Origin: Escherichia phage JLBYU08
Reading direction: 5' to 3' (one strand)
DNA length: 64,000 nt
Sequence record: OK272482.1
A program made the translations under genes and the position numbers. Positions 464 to 29,258 of this stretch are shown here, piece after piece (positions within the stretch are counted from its first letter, which is position 1; the number at the start of each line of letters is the position of its first letter). The notes below the pieces were generated by a model that searched no databases, had not been told where the DNA came from, and saw only the letters and a list, made by a program, of their open reading frames with translations.

Positions 464-790
464 ATGGGTATACCGATCACTGTAAAAGAATTGAATGAAC
501 GTGATGCAGGCGGTCTATGGCCTGCACGAAAAATACGCTGTGTCTACATGAAAGAGAATCTTGAACATCTTGATCAACAGATCAAGGTCGGTGATATTTT
601 CGAGGTCTTCTATTCCAATCGTCGCAACTGGGAAACCATTCAACCTTCTGGTTTTGTTCTTGCCAAACTTGACACTGGAGAAGTGATTATCCCAGGGTTG
701 GATATTGTCTTCGAAATTATCCAGGAGTGGGATCCGGATAAGATTAGATACGAAGAGTTATTCGGTAAAGGTATTATCAAACCTGCGTGA
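464..790 (+). CDS. hypothetical protein, 108 aa
   Basis: ORF; GAAGGAG SD upstream of ATG. Confidence 0.6.
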   Translation: MGIPITVKELNERDAGGLWPARKIRCVYMKENLEHLDQQIKVGDIFEVFYSNRRNWETIQPSGFVLAKLDTGEVIIPGLDIVFEIIQEWDPDKIRYEELFGKGIIKPA

Positions 791-1098
791 GGTGGATTAT
801 GTCTACAAAGGCGGCTAAATACTCCTACATGCCATCAACCTCTGCAGAGGTAGACTTTAGTTTCGATGTGTTTCCACTGTTTGAGGTGGTTCTGGCATAC
901 CCAACAATACTATCTACTCCCGAATCACTTGTGCCTGTTAAGTTGCAGAACGCTATGCATTCTATGCACTACAACAATAAATGTAGGCACAGATGGTGTC
1001 AGGACGGGGAAAAAGATCTGGATAGTTTGAGAGATTTTGACAGTCACCTTTTGACACCTTTCAGCTACTCCAACCTTGATAAGCCCTCGTGGGTATAG
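787..1098 (+). CDS. hypothetical protein, 103 aa
   Basis: ORF overlapping stop of previous gene; GAGGTGG SD. Confidence 0.5.
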   Translation: MRWIMSTKAAKYSYMPSTSAEVDFSFDVFPLFEVVLAYPTILSTPESLVPVKLQNAMHSMHYNNKCRHRWCQDGEKDLDSLRDFDSHLLTPFSYSNLDKPSWV

Positions 1099-1122
1099 CA
1101 AAATATCAAATTTAAGACACCT

Positions 1123-1149
1123 AGGACGCTCTGTGGCGTCCTTTTCTTT
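1123..1149 (+). terminator. rho-independent terminator
   Basis: AGGACGC-TCTGTG-GCGTCCT stem-loop followed by TTTTCTTT. Confidence 0.6.
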
Positions 1150-1311
1150 ATCTAGTGCACGATTGCATACCTTGGACAGGTAATCTCATTACAGAGCGTT
1201 TAAGAGCTTTCTGCAAACAACTCCATATTTCGAGCGTAGCGAGAACGCACGTCCGTTTTGACCCAAATCACCATACGCTCGGATTTTAACCAAACCCTCG
1301 CGGCGTTTCTG

Positions 1312-1340
1312 TTGACACATTACCGCCCTCGTGATATTAT
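1312..1340 (+). promoter_or_regulatory. sigma70-like promoter (TTGACA-17-TATTAT)
   Basis: Consensus -35 hexamer and near-consensus -10 with 17-bp spacer, downstream of terminator and upstream of next ORFs. Confidence 0.5.
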
Positions 1341-1372
1341 CCACACATCGTTTAGAGAATATAGGATACACA

Positions 1373-1462
1373 ATGAGAACATTGTCCGAAGTTTTAGTGG
1401 TGATCCTGATGATCATTACGTCCATAGCGGCTGTTGCCGGAATACTCACGGGTGGAACATGA
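1373..1462 (+). CDS. small hydrophobic protein, 29 aa (MRTLSEVLVVILMIITSIAAVAGILTGGT)
   Basis: Short ORF below the ORF-track cutoff; AGGA SD; ATGA overlap with next gene. Confidence 0.35.
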   Translation: MRTLSEVLVVILMIITSIAAVAGILTGGT

Positions 1463-1671
1463 TCAACACACCTGTATCTGAAGAGACATTCAAAGAAGTG
1501 ACCATATGTCCCTTGGCTGAGCCAGGGAAAGAGGAAAACTTCGATTCTGAAGATTCTCCATCTTCGCTACAGGTAGATCCTGAGGCTGATGACCTGACGT
1601 GGGAGGACATCGTAGATATCTGGTTCTCTATTATGCCTGAGCACGAAGAGTTCAGGGGTGGTAGACTATGA
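1459..1671 (+). CDS. acidic hypothetical protein, 70 aa (start trimmed from ORF 1258..1671)
   Basis: In-frame ATG with GGTGGA SD, coupled to preceding small ORF; upstream part of the track ORF overlaps terminator and promoter. Confidence 0.5.
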   Translation: MINTPVSEETFKEVTICPLAEPGKEENFDSEDSPSSLQVDPEADDLTWEDIVDIWFSIMPEHEEFRGGRL

Positions 1672-1791
1672 AGCACCGAGCACACACAGGTTCCTCATGC
1701 TAAAGCATGGCCTGAAGAGGCAAACGTGCATAATTCCTGTGCATTGTGACGTATAAAACCCGTCCACACTCTCATTTTCAGAGGAGATTTC

Positions 1792-2007
1792 ATGAAGATA
1801 GAAATATTTGGTGGAGCTGACAACACTCGTGGCCTGATTTACCTTGAATTCGATGAATCATACCTGCCAGAGGTGTTAAATATAGACTCTGTTGCGGAGG
1901 CTTTGGGAGTAAACCCTAAAGAACTCCACTCTTGTGCTGAGATCGATGGTTGGGAAGAGACCATGAACATTGATTTCAGTGAAGTAGAGGATGAACCGCT
2001 GGACTGA
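1792..2007 (+). CDS. hypothetical protein, 71 aa
   Basis: ORF with GAGGAG SD. Confidence 0.5.
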   Translation: MKIEIFGGADNTRGLIYLEFDESYLPEVLNIDSVAEALGVNPKELHSCAEIDGWEETMNIDFSEVEDEPLD

Positions 2008-2772
2008 CACACAATTAGCTGCCCGGCTAAAGTGCTGGAAGCACCTATAACACATCTTTCAACTAAATTTCCTACAACCACAATCACTTACCTCCCACAC
2101 ATGACTGTTTGCTTGTTTAGTGAGCAGTCATGCCTTGACATTCTTGCCTATCCTGATAAAATTAAGTTCTTCTCTTTTCTTTTACCGAGTAATTCGGGTT
2201 TTCTGTTCTCTTCGGTTTGAAGGGGTATGGAGATACACCTGAGTGAACAGGGTGAACAACCGAACATTTGGCTATGGCATTAGCATGGCGAAGCGGACGG
2301 GTGACGAAAGAGGGGCCGGAGGACACCAGTCACTGCCATATGATATATGGGTGATAACCTGAAGAGTCTGAATAAGTGTTTAAGTACCAGTCAGAGGAAA
2401 AGGTGAATGGTAGCCGAAGGGGGAGGGGGGGTTTCTTGTATCTTTAATTTGTATATTATGTATACACTTGTAAACCAATCTCATTTGAATTTGTTTACCA
2501 CACAAAGGGGATAGAGACAAATATTATCTATTAAACTTGAATTATTTATAGAAAATACCACAACACCACTTAAGTCTTTGATTTTACACACAAATCCTAC
2601 AGATATTCACCCTCCATATTTAACATACCTGTAACATATTCCATACCCTACCTGTCTGATCAATTCACCCAACCACACCCTCCATATTTTCCCTGTCTGT
2701 ACCACCCCTGCCCCGCCGGGAGTCCCGTCATATCTGGCTTTCCAGCAAATATCACACCCACAAATATCATTG

Positions 2773-2900
2773 CCTGAAGAGGGTTTCATCCCATAATACC
2801 TGCCTTACCTGAAGAGCGCTTCATATACCCCGTAAATTTTTTTAATTGACCTCCTCCCCGCCGCCGGAGGGGTCGGCTTTTCCCACACAGGCCTGAAGAG
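2773..2900. repeat. three copies of the 9-mer CCTGAAGAG within 130 bp
   Basis: Exact 9-mer at 2773, 2808 and 2892 in a coding-poor region. Confidence 0.5.
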
Positions 2901-3537
2901 TCAGCCAGAAATATTTGAACAGGTCCAGTTATACCACGATTTTGACCTGACCGACAGGGAGGCCCGAAGGGTCTAGCTTTCAGCTAGAGTCCTTGCAGGA
3001 CCTACAGGAGCGCTGCCAGGCGGACGAAATGGGAATACTTCTCATTCTTATAACAATTCTCAAATATCAAGGCAGTGAGGCAAATTAATAGGTGAGGCCG
3101 TTCACATAGTGGCACAACATTTGCAATCTATTTTGTGTGGGGGAATGAGAATACATATCATTGTGAGAACCATTATCATTACGGGCAATTTAACATAATA
3201 CCCATTATACGCACCACTGACGATACATACAGGGATTGATAACATGGGTTACTGTTTACGCATATAACAATTATATTTCTTACTATTTGTGTGGGATATA
3301 GTTAGCAGCCGATAGATTAGATATTGACCTGCGGACTTCTGACCGTCTAGACGTCTAAACGCCCACACAACAAGGCTTATACATACATCGCTGAATGTAA
3401 ACAGGGCCGCAAAAATGCTACCATACCAGATTGTAAATTTTTCATGCAGCACTTGACAAAGAGGAGAAAAACTTGTCTGACACAATATGACATACTGGGC
3501 ACATTAAACACACTTTAGACTTAATTGACATGCCTGA

Positions 3538-24014: not shown

Positions 24015-24368
24015 TTAGTGACAATCACCCCAATTACGACCACACAAGTATTCACCTGTGATCTGGAACGGGACTCCCATCATTTTAGAAGCTTGCCAGA
24101 AGCAATGTACCACCATTTCGCCCACAGGACTCCAGATAAGTTCAAGCTTTCCGTCATCGTTCAAGATAGGATCGTACACCGTGTTTCCGTCTCTGTCAAC
24201 CACTTCGTTTCCGTTTTCATCCTTGCGTGCCTTTTTGTACTTATGACCGTCGAACACATGAAGTTTGGCCTCCTGCTCTGCCTTAAATGCTTCCAATTCT
24301 TCAATTGTGTCGAAGGTGTACACAGTCTTATACTTCGGTGTGTCAGGTACTTGAAGCTGATATTCATC
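24015..24368 (-). CDS. DNA polymerase (family A) exon 2: motif C (H|DEYQLQV) and C-terminal end ...NWGDCH
   Basis: Supplies the HDE motif and terminal His absent from the upstream 809-aa ORF; follows the omega-G of the intron. Confidence 0.75.
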   Translation of the reverse strand, partial: DEYQLQVPDTPKYKTVYTFDTIEELEAFKAEQEAKLHVFDGHKYKKARKDENGNEVVDRDGNTVYDPILNDDGKLELIWSPVGEMVVHCFWQASKMMGVPFQITGEYLCGRNWGDCH

Positions 24369-24697
24369 CATCTGTTCAGGTAGGTCGTTAAGCTACCCCG
24401 CACCATTACGTGCATAGCCATACAGTTTCCTGTATGGATCGGACTACCTCACTGCCTTGGTAACAAGGCACCTCCCATTTCGACCGCACTTGCTGGCCTA
24501 CTCTACTCGCTTCTTCACACCAACCTATGTTGGAGCTATGCTTTCGATAGTCTCTGAACGTTCATCCTCTCGGATGCTTCGCTGCGGATTAGCATATTGA
24601 GCTTTTACCATACTCAGGTGTAAAAGTCAACTTAGCTTTCCCGTCAATTAAAGAGGTTATTCGACATAGATCACTCTATGAAGCCACAATGTTATTT
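24369..24697 (-). mobile_element. group I self-splicing intron, 329 nt, no internal ORF
   Basis: AAUUGACGGGAAAG, GUUCAGAGACUA and GGUAGUCCGA elements; exon 1 ends in U, intron ends in G; in-frame TAA just inside intron. Confidence 0.8.
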
Positions 24698-27121
24698 ATG
24701 GTAATAGATAATACGACGGACACCTTCATCGTACCACCCACGCTTCACCATTTGGTGGTGCATGAGTATCCCAACTAAGTCACACAACGATGCACCACCA
24801 TTTTGTTGGTATGCATTAAGTAAAGAGTGTTTAGATCGGGTCCAGATGGCATGACCATCAAAAGAGTATATAAACTTCTTACCAGTTGCTTCCCAGAATT
24901 TCTCCAGATCCTCTTTACGCCCCTTAAGACCAGGGTTGGCATCCCAAAGCGCATCGATTACCCTTTGCCCCAACTCTGGAGAGATATCCAGCATGTCTGC
25001 AACTTTATCTTTTTGTGCCCCGTACATAACCCCATACGTGATAGGTTTACCGTCGTTACGGGACACCTCTCTGCCTGCTACTTTTGTATATGCCTCAGCA
25101 TTGTTTTGGTGTGCGTCCCCGTTACTTACAACATCATAATACAAGCCGTTGTCGAACTCAAAGGCACCCCAAGCCCCGATAAGCTGCTCTAAGTTGGACC
25201 CGTCAATACCGATCTCAAAGTATCCTGGAGGAACACCCCACAGACTACGCATCTCTTTACCCATAACCACTTTAGGAGATGGTTTAGGCATGTTTGCACA
25301 AATACTGTGTTTCTGTCGGGAAGTGTTTGTTAGCCCAGAACTTTTAGCAGGAAGCTTATGGTCAATCTTCAAACGTGGGTGATTAAGAAGACCAGTATCA
25401 ACCTTATCCTCCTTGATTGGATCAAGGACCGATCTGCGGTTTCGCAATGATAACCACAAGACGATATCTTTAGCCATCTCTCCGTTCAATTTTTCAAGAT
25501 TTGGGCATAGGTGTCCAAACGTATCTTTCAGCTGCGGAGAAGTAATAAGTGCTCTGGCTTTTCTACGTATTTTCCCGAATACTTCCTTTTTAATCCTTTC
25601 GGAGTTAGGAAAGCTTCGGAACTTGTGCACGGTTGTCTGAAACTTAGCATCAGTTTTGTTCCAGAAGTTGATAATCAGGTCACAATACTCTGACTCTAAA
25701 AGCTCGTCCATGTATGCATATACTCGTGCATCAACATCTGCATCAGGTAGAGCTTTCTTCTTGCTGTCTTTAGTTACATCCTTAGTTCTCCACATTGTCG
25801 GAAGCCAACCAGCACTGATCAGGTATCGCTTAATGTCGTCCTGATTGCTGATTTTCATAGGTATCTTGCAGTCCGGCATTCGCTTCTGCTGTAGATCACT
25901 TATTGCCTGATCCATCAGCTCTTTAGGTAAAGGTTGTGGTGTGGAAGTGCCCTTAATATAGCCTCTCAAGAAATCAGCCATCTTATCAGGGTCTTTGCAG
26001 CCCATCTCTTCACACCATTTTATCCCCATCTTGCTGACATCTCCTGTGGAGGTAAATGCTCGCTTAGGCGGGGCTTTGAACTCCAAAGCACTCATGTCCA
26101 CAGGATAGCCAAGCTTATCTTTTAACCATTTCCAACCATTGTTGGAGATTGTCCCATCTTGGTTAAACGGCTTTTCAGGGAACTTGGGCCGCTGAGACAT
26201 TGACAGCTCTTTTAAAGGAAGTTGAGGTTCAACACGATCAGCGATTTCTTTCATCCACGCATCGCAACGGTCACGTAAAGCAATAGCTCCATCTATGTCG
26301 AAGTATACACCCTGACGGGCCTGCAGCTCCATCAGGAAGTGCTGCAGCATGCCTCGACGTAGTGCGTTCTTCCAGGTGATCTTCTTGAACCCTTTCGGCT
26401 TCTCTTTGGCTGGATCGTACATAAAGTTCTGCATGTCAGATTTGCCGTAGAATACACCTTTTGATTCCGCTACCAGCTCTTTCCAGAGCAGCTCCTGGAT
26501 GATAACGTCCTCGAATACACGATCCACATACTTCCACAACGGAAGATCGCGCCAGTCATCAATTTGAACTTTCTGGTTACCAAGGGCGTAGCCCCATGCC
26601 ATAAGGCCGTGAGGACCAACAGGCTGCATTTTCTTAGTAACCGGGTTGAATACAGAGTCCGGACAACCTTTTGGTAAAGGGCGATCAGGCCACAAGATTC
26701 GGCTCATCGCCAACGTATCAAACAGGTTAACCTGGTGGTCGTTGATAGTCCCCATACATTTAGGATCACGGAACATATCAAAATGAATACCGGATAATCT
26801 CTCCATCAGCATAAAGTCATAACTGTAGCAGTTATGGCAGTTCAAAGCTGTTGGTGACCAGTCGGAATTGCCTGTAAGCCAACCCTCCAACTCTGAAAAA
26901 TCTGCTATGCGAACTTCAAAATCTTTATAAAAAGTTTTCTTTGCCAGAATAAAGTTCTTAGCCTTCTCTATATCCTCTTCGGAGTAGTGTGTGCGGTCAT
27001 TTAGAGGAAGGAACAGCATAAAACGGTTCTTATTCAGCTCTTTAAACAGGCCGCAGTGATAATAAAGATCTGGGTCTTCCAGCAAACCGGATGACTCAAA
27101 ATCGAACGACCACATGCTCAT
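24698..27121 (-). CDS. DNA polymerase (family A) exon 1: 3'-5' exonuclease and polymerase domains through motif B
   Basis: N-terminal WSFDFESSG exo motif; IGIDGSNLEQL (motif A-like); KPITYGVMYGAQ (motif B); AAGGAGAA SD. Confidence 0.9.
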
Positions 27122-27179: not shown

Positions 27180-29258
27180 TTAAAAAGGTGTTTCATCATC
27201 CTCAAAACCAGGGACCGGATCAGAGGATGGATCATCGTATTGGAGGTCTTCCTGCGTGTCAATAGGCTTGACAGTGGGTGTTACAACCTTATCAGCCACA
27301 ACCTTGCCCATAGGTGTTTCTACAACTGCATGCTCCTGATCCTCAAACATAGCCTGAGGTCTCCAAACAACCTCCCCACCTTCTCCGTCTGTGAACATCT
27401 GCATTTCTTTGTCCCAGTACCAATTACTGGCATCATAGAACTTACCTGTATGCGGATCCATAACTAAAGTGTCAGCAATACCTAAAGTTTTTGCTGGACG
27501 GTTTTTAAGACCTACCAGACGGACACGTCCACGAGAACGATCCACCATTTCTTCGGCCTCGACACCTATGACTACCCAACTCAACTGTTCAAGCCCAGCC
27601 GATCCTCGCAAATTCTCTTTTCGCACAGGATACCAGAAAGGTAATGGGTTACCATCCTTGTCCTTAGGGGGCACAATCTCTGTACGTTTGAGGTGAGCGA
27701 TCACCAAGATAAACACGTTAAACTGCTTACAAAACGCAGCCAGTTGGGTCATAGCCATGTCCAGTTCTTTTCGCTCATCCTTAACATTAAGCCCTGAAAT
27801 TACCATGGACAGGTGATCCAGCACAATATAACGACAATGGTACAGGCAAACCATTTGCTTAAGCTTGGTAATCAACTCGTCCACTGGAATAGACCCGAAA
27901 TGTTTGAACACTTTGATTTTTCCAGCTTTTGCCCATGATTGGTGAATCTCTGCGTGTTCTTGATCAGTTAAAAACTGGCTAGGATCTTCAACAAACTCTT
28001 TAACATCAAACCCTAACTGGTTTGCATACAAGGAGTTAATTGCTTCCTCTGGGTCCTCCTCAAGATGAATCATGCATAGACGATCATCCTCTTCATAGTC
28101 ATCGGCCTTCGGGCATGTCGGGTCCATTAGGTATCTTGCAATACAGTGTTCCAGTTTTTTAGCCACGGTTGTTTTACCGCCGCCTGATGGACCTGTAAGC
28201 ATTACAAGTGTCCCTTTGTGCAAGCCTTTTAGCATTTTTTGCAGTTTTGGGAACTCTGCACTGATATCTACCCCGTTGGAAGTCTTTTTCCGCAAAGACT
28301 CGATAGAGAAGTCTTCTAAATCCGACACAGCATCAGGCACATATTTAACAGGGTGCCGGAACATGTTGACAATATCTTCCAGCTTTTTAGCCTTCAGCAT
28401 GTCTCGGATATCTTTTACACCGTCAGGGTCATTTACTTCACCAGGGTATTCTACGTGGTAAACGTTATCAGCCATCAAAAATGCTGCGATATTGTGCGTG
28501 GCCTCAACACCTTTAATGACGTGTTTTTGCTTCTCTACCTCGTTAGCTGCATCGTTATCCATTGCCAGCACAACTGTTCCATAGCTACGGATAAACTTCT
28601 CATTGTTTGCAAAAGTATCTACTGCGTTTGCACATCCACAGTTAATTCCAACAAAAGGCAGGCAGGGTTTTCCTGCCAGATCACCACCGTTGATAACTGC
28701 GTCGATCCCGTCCTGGACCTCTTTAGCCCACTGCTTCACCTTTGCCGGGGCTTTAGCGTTGGTGAGAATCCCTTTTACTTGTATCTGATATGCAGCCTGC
28801 CATGCTGCAATAACATCACCTTCTCCCTCACAAACGTTAATCTGCTTACGGTTGTTGGAAGATGCACACAGCTTTTGACCAAACATCTGGGAGTTGGCCT
28901 TTACGATACCAACAACGGAGAAATGGCCCCTTTGCTCTTTAGGAATAGTCCAGTCACGCTTTTTGAAACCAGACAGATTTCCGTAGCGGTCGTAATATGG
29001 GAAATATGTTGCAGTGACTGTCACACCGTCTTCTTGGGACAATGCTGATCGCACACCAAAATATTGTGCAGCCATCAGACCGATATTTTGTTGTGGGACA
29101 GGGACAATTTTAGTATTTTCTAAAACAGTCTCTACAGTTTCAACTTCTTTTTCATCACGATAGTCTCGTTTCACACTTCCCCCACTTTTATACTTAGTTT
29201 CTTTCGGGTTTGGCTCACCGAAACGGTTGTATGCAGATGCCATAAATTTACTTCCCAT
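27180..29258 (-). CDS. primase-helicase (T7 gp4-like: TOPRIM primase plus DnaB-like helicase), 692 aa, acidic tail ending in F
   Basis: VCEGEGD and LAMDNDAANE TOPRIM motifs; Walker A TGPSGGGKTT; Walker B IVLDHL; C-terminus EDDETPF; AAGGAG SD. Confidence 0.85.
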   Translation of the reverse strand: MGSKFMASAYNRFGEPNPKETKYKSGGSVKRDYRDEKEVETVETVLENTKIVPVPQQNIGLMAAQYFGVRSALSQEDGVTVTATYFPYYDRYGNLSGFKKRDWTIPKEQRGHFSVVGIVKANSQMFGQKLCASSNNRKQINVCEGEGDVIAAWQAAYQIQVKGILTNAKAPAKVKQWAKEVQDGIDAVINGGDLAGKPCLPFVGINCGCANAVDTFANNEKFIRSYGTVVLAMDNDAANEVEKQKHVIKGVEATHNIAAFLMADNVYHVEYPGEVNDPDGVKDIRDMLKAKKLEDIVNMFRHPVKYVPDAVSDLEDFSIESLRKKTSNGVDISAEFPKLQKMLKGLHKGTLVMLTGPSGGGKTTVAKKLEHCIARYLMDPTCPKADDYEEDDRLCMIHLEEDPEEAINSLYANQLGFDVKEFVEDPSQFLTDQEHAEIHQSWAKAGKIKVFKHFGSIPVDELITKLKQMVCLYHCRYIVLDHLSMVISGLNVKDERKELDMAMTQLAAFCKQFNVFILVIAHLKRTEIVPPKDKDGNPLPFWYPVRKENLRGSAGLEQLSWVVIGVEAEEMVDRSRGRVRLVGLKNRPAKTLGIADTLVMDPHTGKFYDASNWYWDKEMQMFTDGEGGEVVWRPQAMFEDQEHAVVETPMGKVVADKVVTPTVKPIDTQEDLQYDDPSSDPVPGFEDDETPF

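What the first reader, a model, noticed from the sequence alone, without database searches (positions are those of the whole stretch)
24369..24697. Group I self-splicing intron splits the DNA polymerase gene exactly at catalytic motif C
The 809-aa polymerase ORF stops at a TAA (24692-24694) straight after ...RRIIYYHK, before any HDE motif. The next ORF on the same strand (24015-24368) encodes DEYQLQVPDTP...NWGDCH, which is the missing motif C and polymerase C-terminus. The 329 nt between them carry group I hallmarks (AAUUGACGGGAAAG, GUUCAGAGACUA, GGUAGUCCGA), start after an exon-terminal U and end in G. Splicing after CAU and before GAU gives ...IIYYH-DEYQLQV, restoring HDE. There is no ORF in the intron, so no homing endonuclease.
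Basis: partly seen in the sequence, partly recalled or inferred. Interest (0 to 1): 0.7.

Follow-up and report, generated by a model that had tools for sequence, protein, structure and literature searches.

The report
Group I intron in phage polymerase
A 329-base self-splicing-type (group I) intron without its usual endonuclease gene interrupts the DNA polymerase gene of this rV5-like coliphage exactly between the His and the catalytic Asp of the active site; the call is correct, but this intron is already annotated or shown to splice in close relatives, so it is ordinary.

Summary
Window 24369-24697 (minus strand) is a group I intron (Rfam RF00028, 72.5 bits against a cut-off of 50). It splits a family A DNA polymerase gene between His and Asp of motif C (T7 H653|D654).

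- **Splice junction:** removing the 329 nt gives a 925-aa protein. It matches the uninterrupted polymerase of phage JES2013 without gaps, 920 of 925 residues identical.
- **RNA structure:** 15 diverged versions at the same codon boundary support P1-P9.2, including the P3/P7 pseudoknot. 99.5% of cells are paired and 35 of 62 pairs show compensatory changes.
- **No endonuclease gene:** close relatives carry an HNH gene in P6a; the window has a 14-nt hairpin there.
- **Separate translation is unlikely:** no ribosome-binding site precedes exon 2 in any of 17 variants.

It is not new. BASEL-collection records annotate this polymerase as a two-piece joined gene. The homologous intron of Pectobacterium phage CB7 was shown by RT-PCR to splice. 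T7-like phages ΦI and W31 carry IA2 introns at the same site (Pol I 881).

Minor new points:
- This endonuclease-free allele with an FFH2-type core is not in the phage collection searched.
- Endonuclease presence does not follow the intron-core lineage.
- P6a is identical to that of the terminase intron of these phages.

Splicing in this phage itself was not tested.

The parts
24698..27121 (-). DNA polymerase exon 1 (808 codons, ends ...TAT TAC CAT = Y-Y-H). The unspliced reading frame runs on into the intron for AAA TAA.
   Evidence: ORF list. Pfam DNA_pol_A matches residues 620-742. Motif A GIDGSNLE aligns with T7 GIDASGLE. A UAAGGAG Shine-Dalgarno lies upstream of the ATG at 27121.
24369..24697 (-). 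Group I intron of IA2-like architecture, 329 nt, with no endonuclease gene.
   Evidence: Rfam RF00028 at 72.5 bits. Boundaries are fixed by the ungapped match of the spliced junction to intron-less alleles. Covariation supports the structure.
24015..24368 (-). DNA polymerase exon 2 (117 codons plus stop). It starts GAT GAA = D-E of motif C and ends ...NWGDCH.
   Evidence: The Pfam match extends to residue 822 only in the spliced protein. There is no Shine-Dalgarno upstream.
24684..24701 (-). P1. The 5' exon CCAU (24698-24701) plus intron AA (24696-24697) pairs with the internal guide sequence UUGUGG (24684-24689). U24698.G24687 is the wobble pair at the 5' splice site.
   Evidence: Rfam alignment. 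All 6 pairs are invariant in 15 variants.
24365..24368 (-). 3' exon side of P10. GAUG pairs with intron CAUU (24688-24691), next to the guide sequence.
   Evidence: 3 pairs invariant, the fourth G-C in 12, G.U in 1 and G/A in 2. Intron-less Vequintavirus alleles read GAC here and not GAU.
24665..24680 (-). P2 hairpin, CAUAGA-GUGA-UCUAUG (6 bp, GNRA loop).
   Evidence: All 6 pairs show compensatory changes (helix 2).
24651..24656 (-). P3 5' strand CCUCUU. It pairs with GGGAGG at 24471-24476.
   Evidence: helix 3: 3 of 6 pairs compensatory, 100% paired.
24582..24647 (-). P4 (UUG-A-CGGG with UCCGCAG), P5 (GC/GC) and the long P5a/b extension (24594-24634).
   Evidence: helices 4 and 5. The P5a stems CUUUUAC/GUAAAAG and UUGA/UCAA are recovered by the MFE fold.
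24559..24581 (-). P6 (CG/CG) with P6a hairpin CAUCC-GAGA-GGAUG (24563-24576). In relatives, a ~500-530-nt insert bearing the HNH gene occupies this position.
   Evidence: helices 6 and 7: all pairs compensatory. The segment is identical to the rV5 terminase intron.
24548..24552 (-). P7 5' strand GACUA, preceded by J6/7 UUCAGA. It pairs with UAGUC at 24442-24446. P7 crosses P3 (pseudoknot).
   Evidence: helix 8: 100% paired, one compensatory pair (U-A to C-G).
24482..24547 (-). P7.1 (extended, 24502-24547), the GUA linker (24499-24501) and P7.2 (GGCC...GGUC, 24482-24498).
   Evidence: helix 9. P7.1 and P7.2 joined by GUA is the IA2 hallmark quoted in PMC3428280.
24453..24470 (-). P8 hairpin, UGCCUUG-UUAC-CAAGGCA.
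   Evidence: helix 10: 4 of 5 pairs compensatory.
24369..24434 (-). P9 (UACAG-GAAA-CUGUA), P9.1 (GCAC...GUGC), P9.2 (GGUAG...CUACC), the tail UGAACAGAUG and the terminal guanosine G24369.
   Evidence: helices 11-13. The terminal G is present in 17 of 17 variants.

Best explanation
The window comes from a Vequintavirus (phage rV5 group). Its family A DNA polymerase gene is interrupted by a 329-nt group I intron of IA2-like architecture. The intron sits between the His and Asp codons of motif C (HDE; the Asp is one of the two metal-binding catalytic carboxylates).

Inferred mechanism, following established group I chemistry:
1. The pre-mRNA folds into P1-P9.2.
2. The guide sequence UUGUGG pairs with the exon end CCAU, placing U24698 in a U.G wobble.
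3. A free guanosine attacks after that U.
4. P10 (GAUG/CAUU) brings in exon 2, and the terminal G24369 is exchanged.
5. The exons are ligated to CAU-GAU-GAA.

The ligated message encodes one 925-aa polymerase. Unspliced RNA would yield an 809-aa product that lacks the catalytic Asp, because a UAA follows two codons into the intron.

This copy has no homing endonuclease gene. A short P6a hairpin stands where relatives carry an HNH gene. This copy therefore cannot promote its own homing and would spread only by ordinary recombination or by the endonuclease of a co-infecting relative.

Shown here: sequence, boundaries, structure conservation and restoration of the reading frame. Inferred: catalysis, and splicing in this phage.
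For: - Rfam RF00028 scores 72.5 bits against a gathering score of 50 and matches the full model 1-253. It is the only RNA-family hit in the window.
- The predicted spliced junction matches intron-less Vequintavirus genomes over 500 of 500 bases without a gap, at 96-98% identity. JES2013 reads ...TAT TAC CAT GAC GAA TAT = YYHDEY.
- The spliced protein is 925 aa, as is the JES2013 polymerase. 920 of 925 residues are identical, and all five differences lie in the first 64 residues.
- The Pfam DNA_pol_A match grows from profile positions 137-261 to 137-348 on splicing.
- The alignment to T7 DNA polymerase runs across the junction onto H653-D654-E655.
- 17 introns, in Vequintavirus, Avunavirus, Seunavirus, Certrevirus, a Vibrio phage and uncultivated viral contigs, sit at the same CAY|...G|GAY boundary.
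- ORF-less variants score 64.7-91.2 bits with Rfam, and the intron-less control locus gives no hit.
- Covariation on 15 variants and 62 pairs: 99.5% of cells paired (82.5% in shuffles; 32-43% when partners are slid). 35 pairs changed on both sides (23.3 in shuffles, 0 of 500 reach it; 2-10 when slid).
- No Shine-Dalgarno precedes exon 2 in 17 of 17 variants, whereas neighbouring genes have UAAGGAG. One variant ends in ACG, which is not a start codon.
- The homologous intron in Certrevirus CB7 (the one containing HNH gene CB7_50, between polymerase fragments CB7_51 and CB7_49) is recorded as spliced by RT-PCR and Sanger sequencing (PMC7344957).
- BASEL records join the two polymerase pieces across introns of exactly 842 and 276 nt.
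Against: - No RNA data exist for this phage, so splicing and self-splicing are inferred.
- The single-sequence MFE fold is only modestly better than shuffles (z = -2.1) and does not recover P3/P7. That is expected for a pseudoknot.
- The core alignment was built by anchoring on conserved junctions with my own regular expressions, and peripheral loops were replaced by fixed linkers. Register was therefore partly imposed, although no pairing was enforced.
- Related sequences can exceed the shuffle control without any structure. The slid-partner control addresses this.
- The guanosine-binding pair in P7 was not individually identified.
Confidence: 0.93

Rival explanations
1. The polymerase is made as two separate polypeptides (809 aa and 118 aa) that associate after translation. 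The intervening RNA would be a non-splicing remnant, as described for the split NrdA of Aeromonas phage Aeh1.
For: Many GenBank records annotate two separate ORFs, and the 118-aa ORF has an in-frame ATG, TTG or GTG made of the last three intron bases. The CB7 paper reports one HNH-associated insertion that did not splice, though it is in a different gene.
Against: - The break falls between His and the catalytic Asp of motif C.
- No Shine-Dalgarno precedes exon 2 in any of 17 variants, and one ends in ACG.
- The full ribozyme core is kept by compensatory changes. A dead spacer would have no reason to maintain that.
- The homologous CB7 intron is spliced (PMC7344957).
Confidence: 0.03
2. The intron is real but needs help or is regulated. 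Splicing in vivo would depend on translation of exon 1 or on a host or phage protein, so that it gates polymerase production and is not constitutive self-splicing.
For: From established knowledge, T4 group I introns need ongoing translation for efficient splicing in vivo. Here a stop codon lies two codons into the intron, a layout typical of such phage introns. No data here address kinetics.
Against: From my recollection of Bonocora and Shub 2004, the IA2 introns at the same site in phages ΦI and W31 self-splice in vitro under mild conditions. All core elements are intact. Nothing in the sequence points to a specific regulator.
Confidence: 0.04

Closest known systems
Same-site DNA polymerase intron of other Vequintavirus phages, annotated as a joined CDS in BASEL collection records (EmilHeitz bas49_0077, RudolfGeigy bas52_0076; Maffei et al. 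2021)
   Same: Same gene and same codon boundary. The intron core is 92-99% identical to the FV3/FFH2-type alleles. The joined CDS spans imply intron lengths of 842 and 276 nt, identical to those derived here.
   Different: The window combines the FFH2-type core (99.4%) with an endonuclease-free P6a. All 8 records at >=99% intron identity cover only 96% of the query, and the three shown carry the HNH gene. The ORF-less alleles identified, SYGMH1 and HMD-6, have the FV3-type core where examined (SYGMH1 is 92.9% identical to the window). Most other records, including rV5, FFH2, I29 and SYGMH1, leave the intron unannotated.
Certrevirus CB7/phiTE DNA polymerase intron containing HNH gene CB7_50 (Buttimer et al. 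2020, PMC7344957)
   Same: Homologous intron at the identical H|DE boundary, with the same P1, guide sequence and core helices. Splicing was demonstrated by RT-PCR and Sanger sequencing.
   Different: 687 nt. Its HNH ORF starts in the P5 extension and runs through P4'/P6. CB7 has a second polymerase intron upstream that this window lacks. The paper classified the introns as group I only because they carry HNH genes and gave no RNA structure.
[quoted passage not shown]
   Same: Inserted at site 881 in E. coli Pol I numbering, which I read as after His881 of the HDE motif, the same boundary as here. Subgroup IA2, with P7.1 and P7.2 linked by GUA and the HNH gene in P6a (PMC3428280).
   Different: The host phages are podoviruses unrelated to Vequintavirinae. 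Their sequences (AY769989, AY769990) are not in the collections available here, so sequence-level homology was not tested. Those introns carry an endonuclease gene.
SPO1, SP82, Bastille and Pf-WMP3 DNA polymerase group I introns
   Same: Group I (IA2) introns in family A polymerase genes of phages, usually with nicking HNH endonucleases.
   Different: Inserted at a different site, Pol I position 674 in the fingers subdomain and not motif C (PMC3428280).
First intron of the rV5 terminase large-subunit gene (Kropinski et al. 2013, PMC3606486)
   Same: Same phage group, ORF-less group I intron (Rfam 84.9 bits). A perfect 37-nt stretch covering P4'-P6-P6a-P6' is shared with the window's polymerase intron.
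   Different: Different host gene, P1, P2, P5 extension, P7.1/P7.2, P8 and P9. It is not in this window.

Membership tests
Group I catalytic intron (Rfam RF00028) | Covariance-model score at or above the curated gathering score | tested here: met
   72.5 bits against 50, E = 1.9e-16, model positions 1-253.
Group I catalytic intron (Rfam RF00028) | Conserved core helices P3-P8, including the P3/P7 pseudoknot, maintained in evolution | tested here: met
   15 same-site variants: 99.5% of cells paired, 35 of 62 pairs with changes on both sides, 0 of 500 shuffles reach this, slid controls 32-43% paired.
Group I catalytic intron (Rfam RF00028) | 5' splice site after a U that forms a U.G wobble with the internal guide sequence in P1 | tested here: met
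   U24698.G24687. The pair is invariant in 15 of 15 variants.
Group I catalytic intron (Rfam RF00028) | Terminal guanosine at the 3' end, with P10 pairing between the guide sequence and the 3' exon | tested here: met
   G24369 is the last intron base, and a terminal G is present in 17 of 17 variants. P10 is GAUG/CAUU, 3-4 bp.
Group I catalytic intron (Rfam RF00028) | Exon ligation restores an uninterrupted functional reading frame | tested here: met
   The spliced junction is identical in register to intron-less alleles. The protein is 925 aa against 925 aa, 920 identical. HDE aligns with T7 H653-D654-E655.
Group I catalytic intron (Rfam RF00028) | Guanosine-dependent self-splicing of the RNA | not testable with these tools
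   Needs in vitro transcription and a splicing assay. Only a homolog (CB7) has in vivo RT-PCR evidence (PMC7344957).
Subgroup IA2 | Extra helices P7.1 and P7.2 between P7 and the 3' strand of P3, linked by G-U-A | tested here: met
   P7.1 at 24502-24547, GUA at 24499-24501, P7.2 at 24482-24498. GUA is present in all 15 parsed variants (it was a fixed anchor in my parse, so its invariance is not an independent test). P7.2 has 2 of 4 pairs compensatory. P7.1 is present in 12 of 15 variants, all with covariation. The criterion is quoted from PMC3428280.
Subgroup IA2 | Assignment by a subgroup-specific model or phylogeny | not tested
   No subgroup models were available. PMC11878797 notes that phage 'IA2' is heterogeneous.
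Mobile (homing) group I intron | Intron-encoded homing endonuclease gene | tested here: not met
   Only 27-28 aa ORFs lie inside the intron on the sense strand, and no Pfam family matches the two overlapping ORFs scanned. Relatives carry a 168-aa HNH ORF in P6a.
Mobile (homing) group I intron | Presence/absence polymorphism among closely related genomes at a conserved target site | tested here: met
   Allele probes against the phage collection: intron-less 44 records at >=95% identity, HEG-bearing 31, rV5-type 24, ORF-less FV3/FFH2-type 3.

The most novel reading that the evidence does not exclude
The endonuclease-free allele in this window may have arisen by ectopic recombination between two different introns of the same genome. 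On this reading, the ORF-less terminase intron donated its P6-P6a segment to the polymerase intron and erased the HNH gene, and this happened more than once. Three observations fit:
- The two ORF-less polymerase-intron alleles belong to different core lineages (92.9% identical to each other, but 99.4% and 97.4% to HEG-bearing partners).
- Both carry the same 19-nt P6a segment.
- That segment lies within a perfect 37-nt match to the terminase intron.

The alternative is that the hairpin is ancestral and the HNH cassette moved between intron lineages.
Probability: 0.25. Interest if true: 0.4.

Novelty: already known. Interest (0 to 1): 0.2.

Why it matters
The main practical value is for annotation. 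Many GenBank records of rV5-like phages, and the rV5 genome paper itself ("775 amino acid DNA polymerase"), describe a truncated polymerase plus an orphan "hypothetical protein". The true product is a 925-aa enzyme encoded across an intron. Polymerase-based phylogenies and pangenomes of these therapy-relevant phages are affected.

Biologically it adds one more case to a well-known pattern, group I introns targeting the most conserved codons of essential phage genes. It also offers a tidy natural series at a single site for studying the gain and loss of homing endonuclease genes: intron-less, intron with endonuclease, intron without, and a diverged intron.

Tried and rejected
- **Chance ORF break or sequencing frameshift:** rejected, because the same 329-nt insert architecture recurs in many independent genomes and the exon frames match exactly.
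- **Intein:** rejected, because a stop codon follows two codons into the insert and the insert matches an RNA model.
- **Rfam's 3' end (24419) as the splice site:** rejected, because only G24369|G24368 restores HDE and matches intron-less alleles. The extra 50 nt form P9.1 and P9.2, both with covariation.
- **Direct comparison with ΦI/W31:** the accession is not held and the Bonocora and Shub paper is not in the library.
- **Endonuclease as a link to T7-like introns:** tblastn with the relatives' HNH protein finds a huge, diffuse family of 745 records and was uninformative.
- **Single long regular expression for the 3' half:** it failed on all sequences and was replaced by stepwise anchors.
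- **Divergent-context contigs:** L013 and L023 gave no Rfam hit at E <= 1, and L022 gave only a sub-threshold hit of 32.8 bits. L021 and L025 could not be parsed into the common core. All five were left out of the covariation set.
- **Other introns or tRNAs in the window:** none found.

Full report
**1. What is in the sequence**

On the minus strand, an 809-aa ORF (24692..27121) ends ...RRIIYYHK-TAA. A 118-aa ORF (24015..24371) reads M-DEYQLQVPDTP...NWGDCH. Between the His codon CAT (24698-24700) and GAT (24366-24368) lie 329 nt.

The Rfam group I intron model matches 24419..24707 with 72.5 bits (gathering score 50, E = 1.9e-16) over its full length. It is the only RNA-family match in the 64-kb window, even at E <= 0.1.

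**2. Where the window comes from**

The polymerase region is 93-98% identical to more than 100 genomes of the genus Vequintavirus, the rV5, FV3 and FFH2 group of E. coli myoviruses. Several of these records are deposited under Campylobacter phage names.

**3. Exact splice sites**

In the Rfam alignment, the exon bases CCAU plus intron AA pair with the guide sequence UUGUGG. This places U24698 opposite G24687, the U.G wobble that marks a group I 5' splice site. The first four exon-2 bases, GAUG, can pair with CAUU immediately 5' of that G, forming P10. The intron ends in G24369.

Joining the exons gives a 925-aa protein reading ...IIYYH-DEYQLQV....

The decisive check is natural. A 500-nt query made of the predicted spliced junction matches intron-less Vequintavirus genomes (JES2013, HdK5, EdH4, Murica, slur16 and others) in one ungapped piece at 96-98% identity. 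JES2013 reads ...TAT TAC CAT GAC GAA TAT.... Its annotated polymerase is also 925 aa. 920 residues are identical to the spliced product, and all five differences lie within the first 64 residues.

The Rfam hit stops 50 nt short of the 3' splice site. Those 50 nt form two peripheral hairpins, P9.1 and P9.2, plus the tail.

**4. The site is catalytic motif C**

- The Pfam DNA_pol_A match covers profile positions 137-261 for the 809-aa ORF. It covers 137-348 for the spliced protein.
- Against solved structures, the spliced protein aligns with T7 DNA polymerase through the junction: riiyyHDEyql against ymawvHDEiqv, T7 residues 653-655.
- From established knowledge, T7 D654, together with D475 of motif A, binds the catalytic metals. 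Motif A is also aligned here (GIDGSNLE against GIDASGLE).
- An unspliced message would therefore give a product without one catalytic carboxylate.

**5. The same intron elsewhere, and its structure**

Low-stringency DNA searches and one pattern scan of viral contigs recovered 17 introns at exactly the same boundary, CAY|...G|GAY-GAR. They come from:

- Vequintavirus: the FFH2/window type, the FV3/I29/SYGMH1 type, and a 276-nt rV5 type only 69% identical
- Avunavirus: 18-1-2 and Av-05
- Seunavirus: GEC_vB_MG and PVP-SE1
- Certrevirus: PBES02, phiTE and CB7
- Vibrio phage K412
- uncultivated contigs

Every ORF-less variant that parsed into the common core passes Rfam's threshold (64.7-91.2 bits). 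The intron-less control locus gives nothing.

I parsed 15 of them into helices using conserved single-stranded junctions as anchors and counted pairs. With my own count, 69 pairs were 99.3% canonical and 39 had compensatory double changes.

On a gapless 241-column core alignment (A1), the pair-counting tool gave the following.

| Measure | Observed | Shuffled partners | Partners slid by 1-3 columns |
|---|---|---|---|
| Cells forming a standard pair | 99.5% | 82.5% (0 of 500 reach observed) | 32-43% |
| Pairs with changes on both sides (of 62) | 35 | 23.3 (0 of 500) | 2-10 |

P2, P6, P6a, P8, P9 and P9.2 vary at nearly every pair yet stay paired. P3 and P7, which cross each other, are both supported. 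P1 is invariant.

The architecture is P7.1 and P7.2 between P7 and the 3' strand of P3, joined by GUA. That is the subgroup IA2 hallmark as quoted in PMC3428280.

Caveats:
- I imposed the register through anchors, and peripheral loops were replaced by linkers.
- The sequences are related by descent.
- The single-sequence MFE fold gives only z = -2.1 and misses the pseudoknot, as expected.

**6. No endonuclease gene here**

In FFH2, I29 and about 30 other records, a 533-nt insert sits between GCAGCG and AACGUUCAGAG, in P6a. It carries a 168-aa ORF with a weak HNH_3 match (below Pfam's cut-off) that the records annotate as an HNH endonuclease. In the window that insert is replaced by AAG-CAUCC-GAGA-GGAUG-AA.

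Inside the window's intron only 27-28 aa ORFs exist on the sense strand. The two overlapping ORFs of 40 aa or more match no Pfam family.

Other lineages place their endonuclease ORFs elsewhere. In phiTE and CB7 the ORF starts in the P5 extension. In PVP-SE1 the insert lies between P7 and P7.2. This indicates repeated independent endonuclease invasions of one intron family.

**7. Rival: two polypeptides**

The ORF that annotators call downstream starts with the last three intron bases: AUG here, UUG or GUG in most relatives, and ACG in one. None of the 17 variants has a Shine-Dalgarno-like element upstream. The polymerase, primase/helicase and a neighbouring gene all have UAAGGAG at the usual distance.

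Together with the conserved ribozyme core and the position of the break inside motif C, this makes separate translation very unlikely.

**8. What is already known**

- The rV5 genome paper reports introns only in the terminase gene and describes a 775-aa polymerase (PMC3606486).
- Most GenBank records list two ORFs.
- The BASEL collection records annotate the polymerase as a two-piece joined CDS. EmilHeitz spans 3620 nt (2778 + 842). RudolfGeigy spans 3054 nt (2778 + 276). These are exactly the intron lengths derived here. The BASEL paper states that intron boundaries were identified by comparative annotation.
- In Certrevirus CB7, the homologous intron contains HNH gene CB7_50, between polymerase fragments CB7_51 and CB7_49. 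It is recorded as spliced by RT-PCR and Sanger sequencing (PMC7344957).
- PMC3428280 states that the IA2 introns of T7-like phages ΦI and W31 lie at Pol I site 881, which I read as the same His|Asp boundary, with their HNH genes in P6a.

The finding is therefore a correct rediscovery of a known intron at a known site.

**9. Small things that may be new**

Allele-specific 44-nt probes against the phage collection give a rough census.

| Allele at the polymerase site | Records |
|---|---|
| Intron-less (>=95% identity) | 44 |
| Intron with HNH gene | 31 |
| rV5-type intron | 24 |
| ORF-less FV3/FFH2-type at >=99% identity | 3 |

- All 8 records at >=99% identity to the window's intron cover only 96% of it, and the three listed carry the HNH insert. 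The window's FFH2-type core without the HNH gene therefore appears to be absent from that collection.
- The window's core is 99.4% identical to FFH2 (HEG-bearing) but 92.9% to the ORF-less SYGMH1. SYGMH1 in turn is 97.4% identical to HEG-bearing I29. Yet both ORF-less alleles have the same 19-nt P6a segment.
- That segment lies inside a perfect 37-nt match to the first, ORF-less intron of the rV5 terminase gene. Endonuclease presence is thus decoupled from the intron-core lineage. Either the hairpin is ancestral and the HNH cassette moved between lineages, or the terminase intron served as a template for its removal.
- All intron-bearing alleles read CAT|GAT, except L025, which reads CAT|GAC. 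The five intron-less alleles checked read CAT|GAC (Vequintavirus, 3) or CAC|GAT (Seunavirus SPLA5a and Certrevirus CR3). This fits a requirement for U at position -1 (P1 wobble) and U at +3 (P10). The sample is small.

**10. Verdict**

- Observation: confirmed.
- Interpretation: supported.
- Mechanism: standard two-step group I splicing, restoring a 925-aa family A polymerase. The structure and boundaries are shown here; the catalysis is inferred.
- Novelty: already known.
- Interest: low, apart from annotation clean-up and a modest lead on endonuclease gain and loss.

Noticed in passing
window 24559-24591 (P4'-P6-P6a-P6'); L041 1500-1536: A perfect 37-nt stretch of the polymerase intron (UAAUCCGCAGCGAAGCAUCCGAGAGGAUGAACGUUCA) is shared with the first, ORF-less intron of the rV5 terminase large-subunit gene. 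About 47 Vequintavirus records carry it at the terminase locus. The rest of the two introns differs.
   Followed up: partly
window 24561-24579 compared with L003, L004, L001: HNH gene presence is decoupled from the intron-core lineage. The window (ORF-less) is 99.4% identical to FFH2 (HEG+), and SYGMH1 (ORF-less) is 97.4% identical to I29 (HEG+). The two ORF-less alleles are only 92.9% alike, yet they share an identical 19-nt P6a segment.
   Followed up: partly
window 24366-24700; L005, L037, L038, L039, L040: Intron-bearing alleles read CAT|GAT at the junction in 16 of 17 cases. The five intron-less alleles checked read CAT|GAC (Vequintavirus) or CAC|GAT (Seunavirus, Certrevirus), so one of the two wobble bases needed for P1 (U at -1) or P10 (U at +3) is always different.
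   Followed up: partly
L017 1104-1479; L011 2808-3520; L007 1-470: Some relatives (an uncultivated contig, CB7, phiTE, GEC_vB_MG) have a second group I intron about 1.1 kb upstream in the same polymerase gene. The window's exon 1 is uninterrupted there.
   Followed up: partly
L013, L022, L023 (viral contigs): The same 5' splice-site, guide-sequence and P2 pattern follows quite different peptide contexts (...VLHFH, ...YVHFH, ...IKIH) and is followed by a different core. Only L022 gives a sub-threshold Rfam hit (32.8 bits). These may be further introns at the motif C His codon of unrelated polymerases.
   Followed up: partly
L004 380-1114; L005 1-330; L011 266-832: FFH2, JES2013 and CB7 carry a free-standing HNH endonuclease gene immediately upstream of the polymerase gene. 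The window has only a 58-nt gap between primase/helicase (27180..29258) and the polymerase (start 27121).
   Followed up: no
one search hit list (MG0656xx records): About 17-20 records named 'Campylobacter phage' with host Campylobacter jejuni are 95-98% identical to E. coli Vequintaviruses over this locus. The naming looks questionable.
   Followed up: no
L002 (DQ832317) 483-3434: The reference rV5 record starts the polymerase at a later ATG (775 aa) and annotates several small overlapping 'hypothetical' ORFs (ORF 225-227) across the intron and exon 2. These are most likely annotation artefacts.
   Followed up: partly
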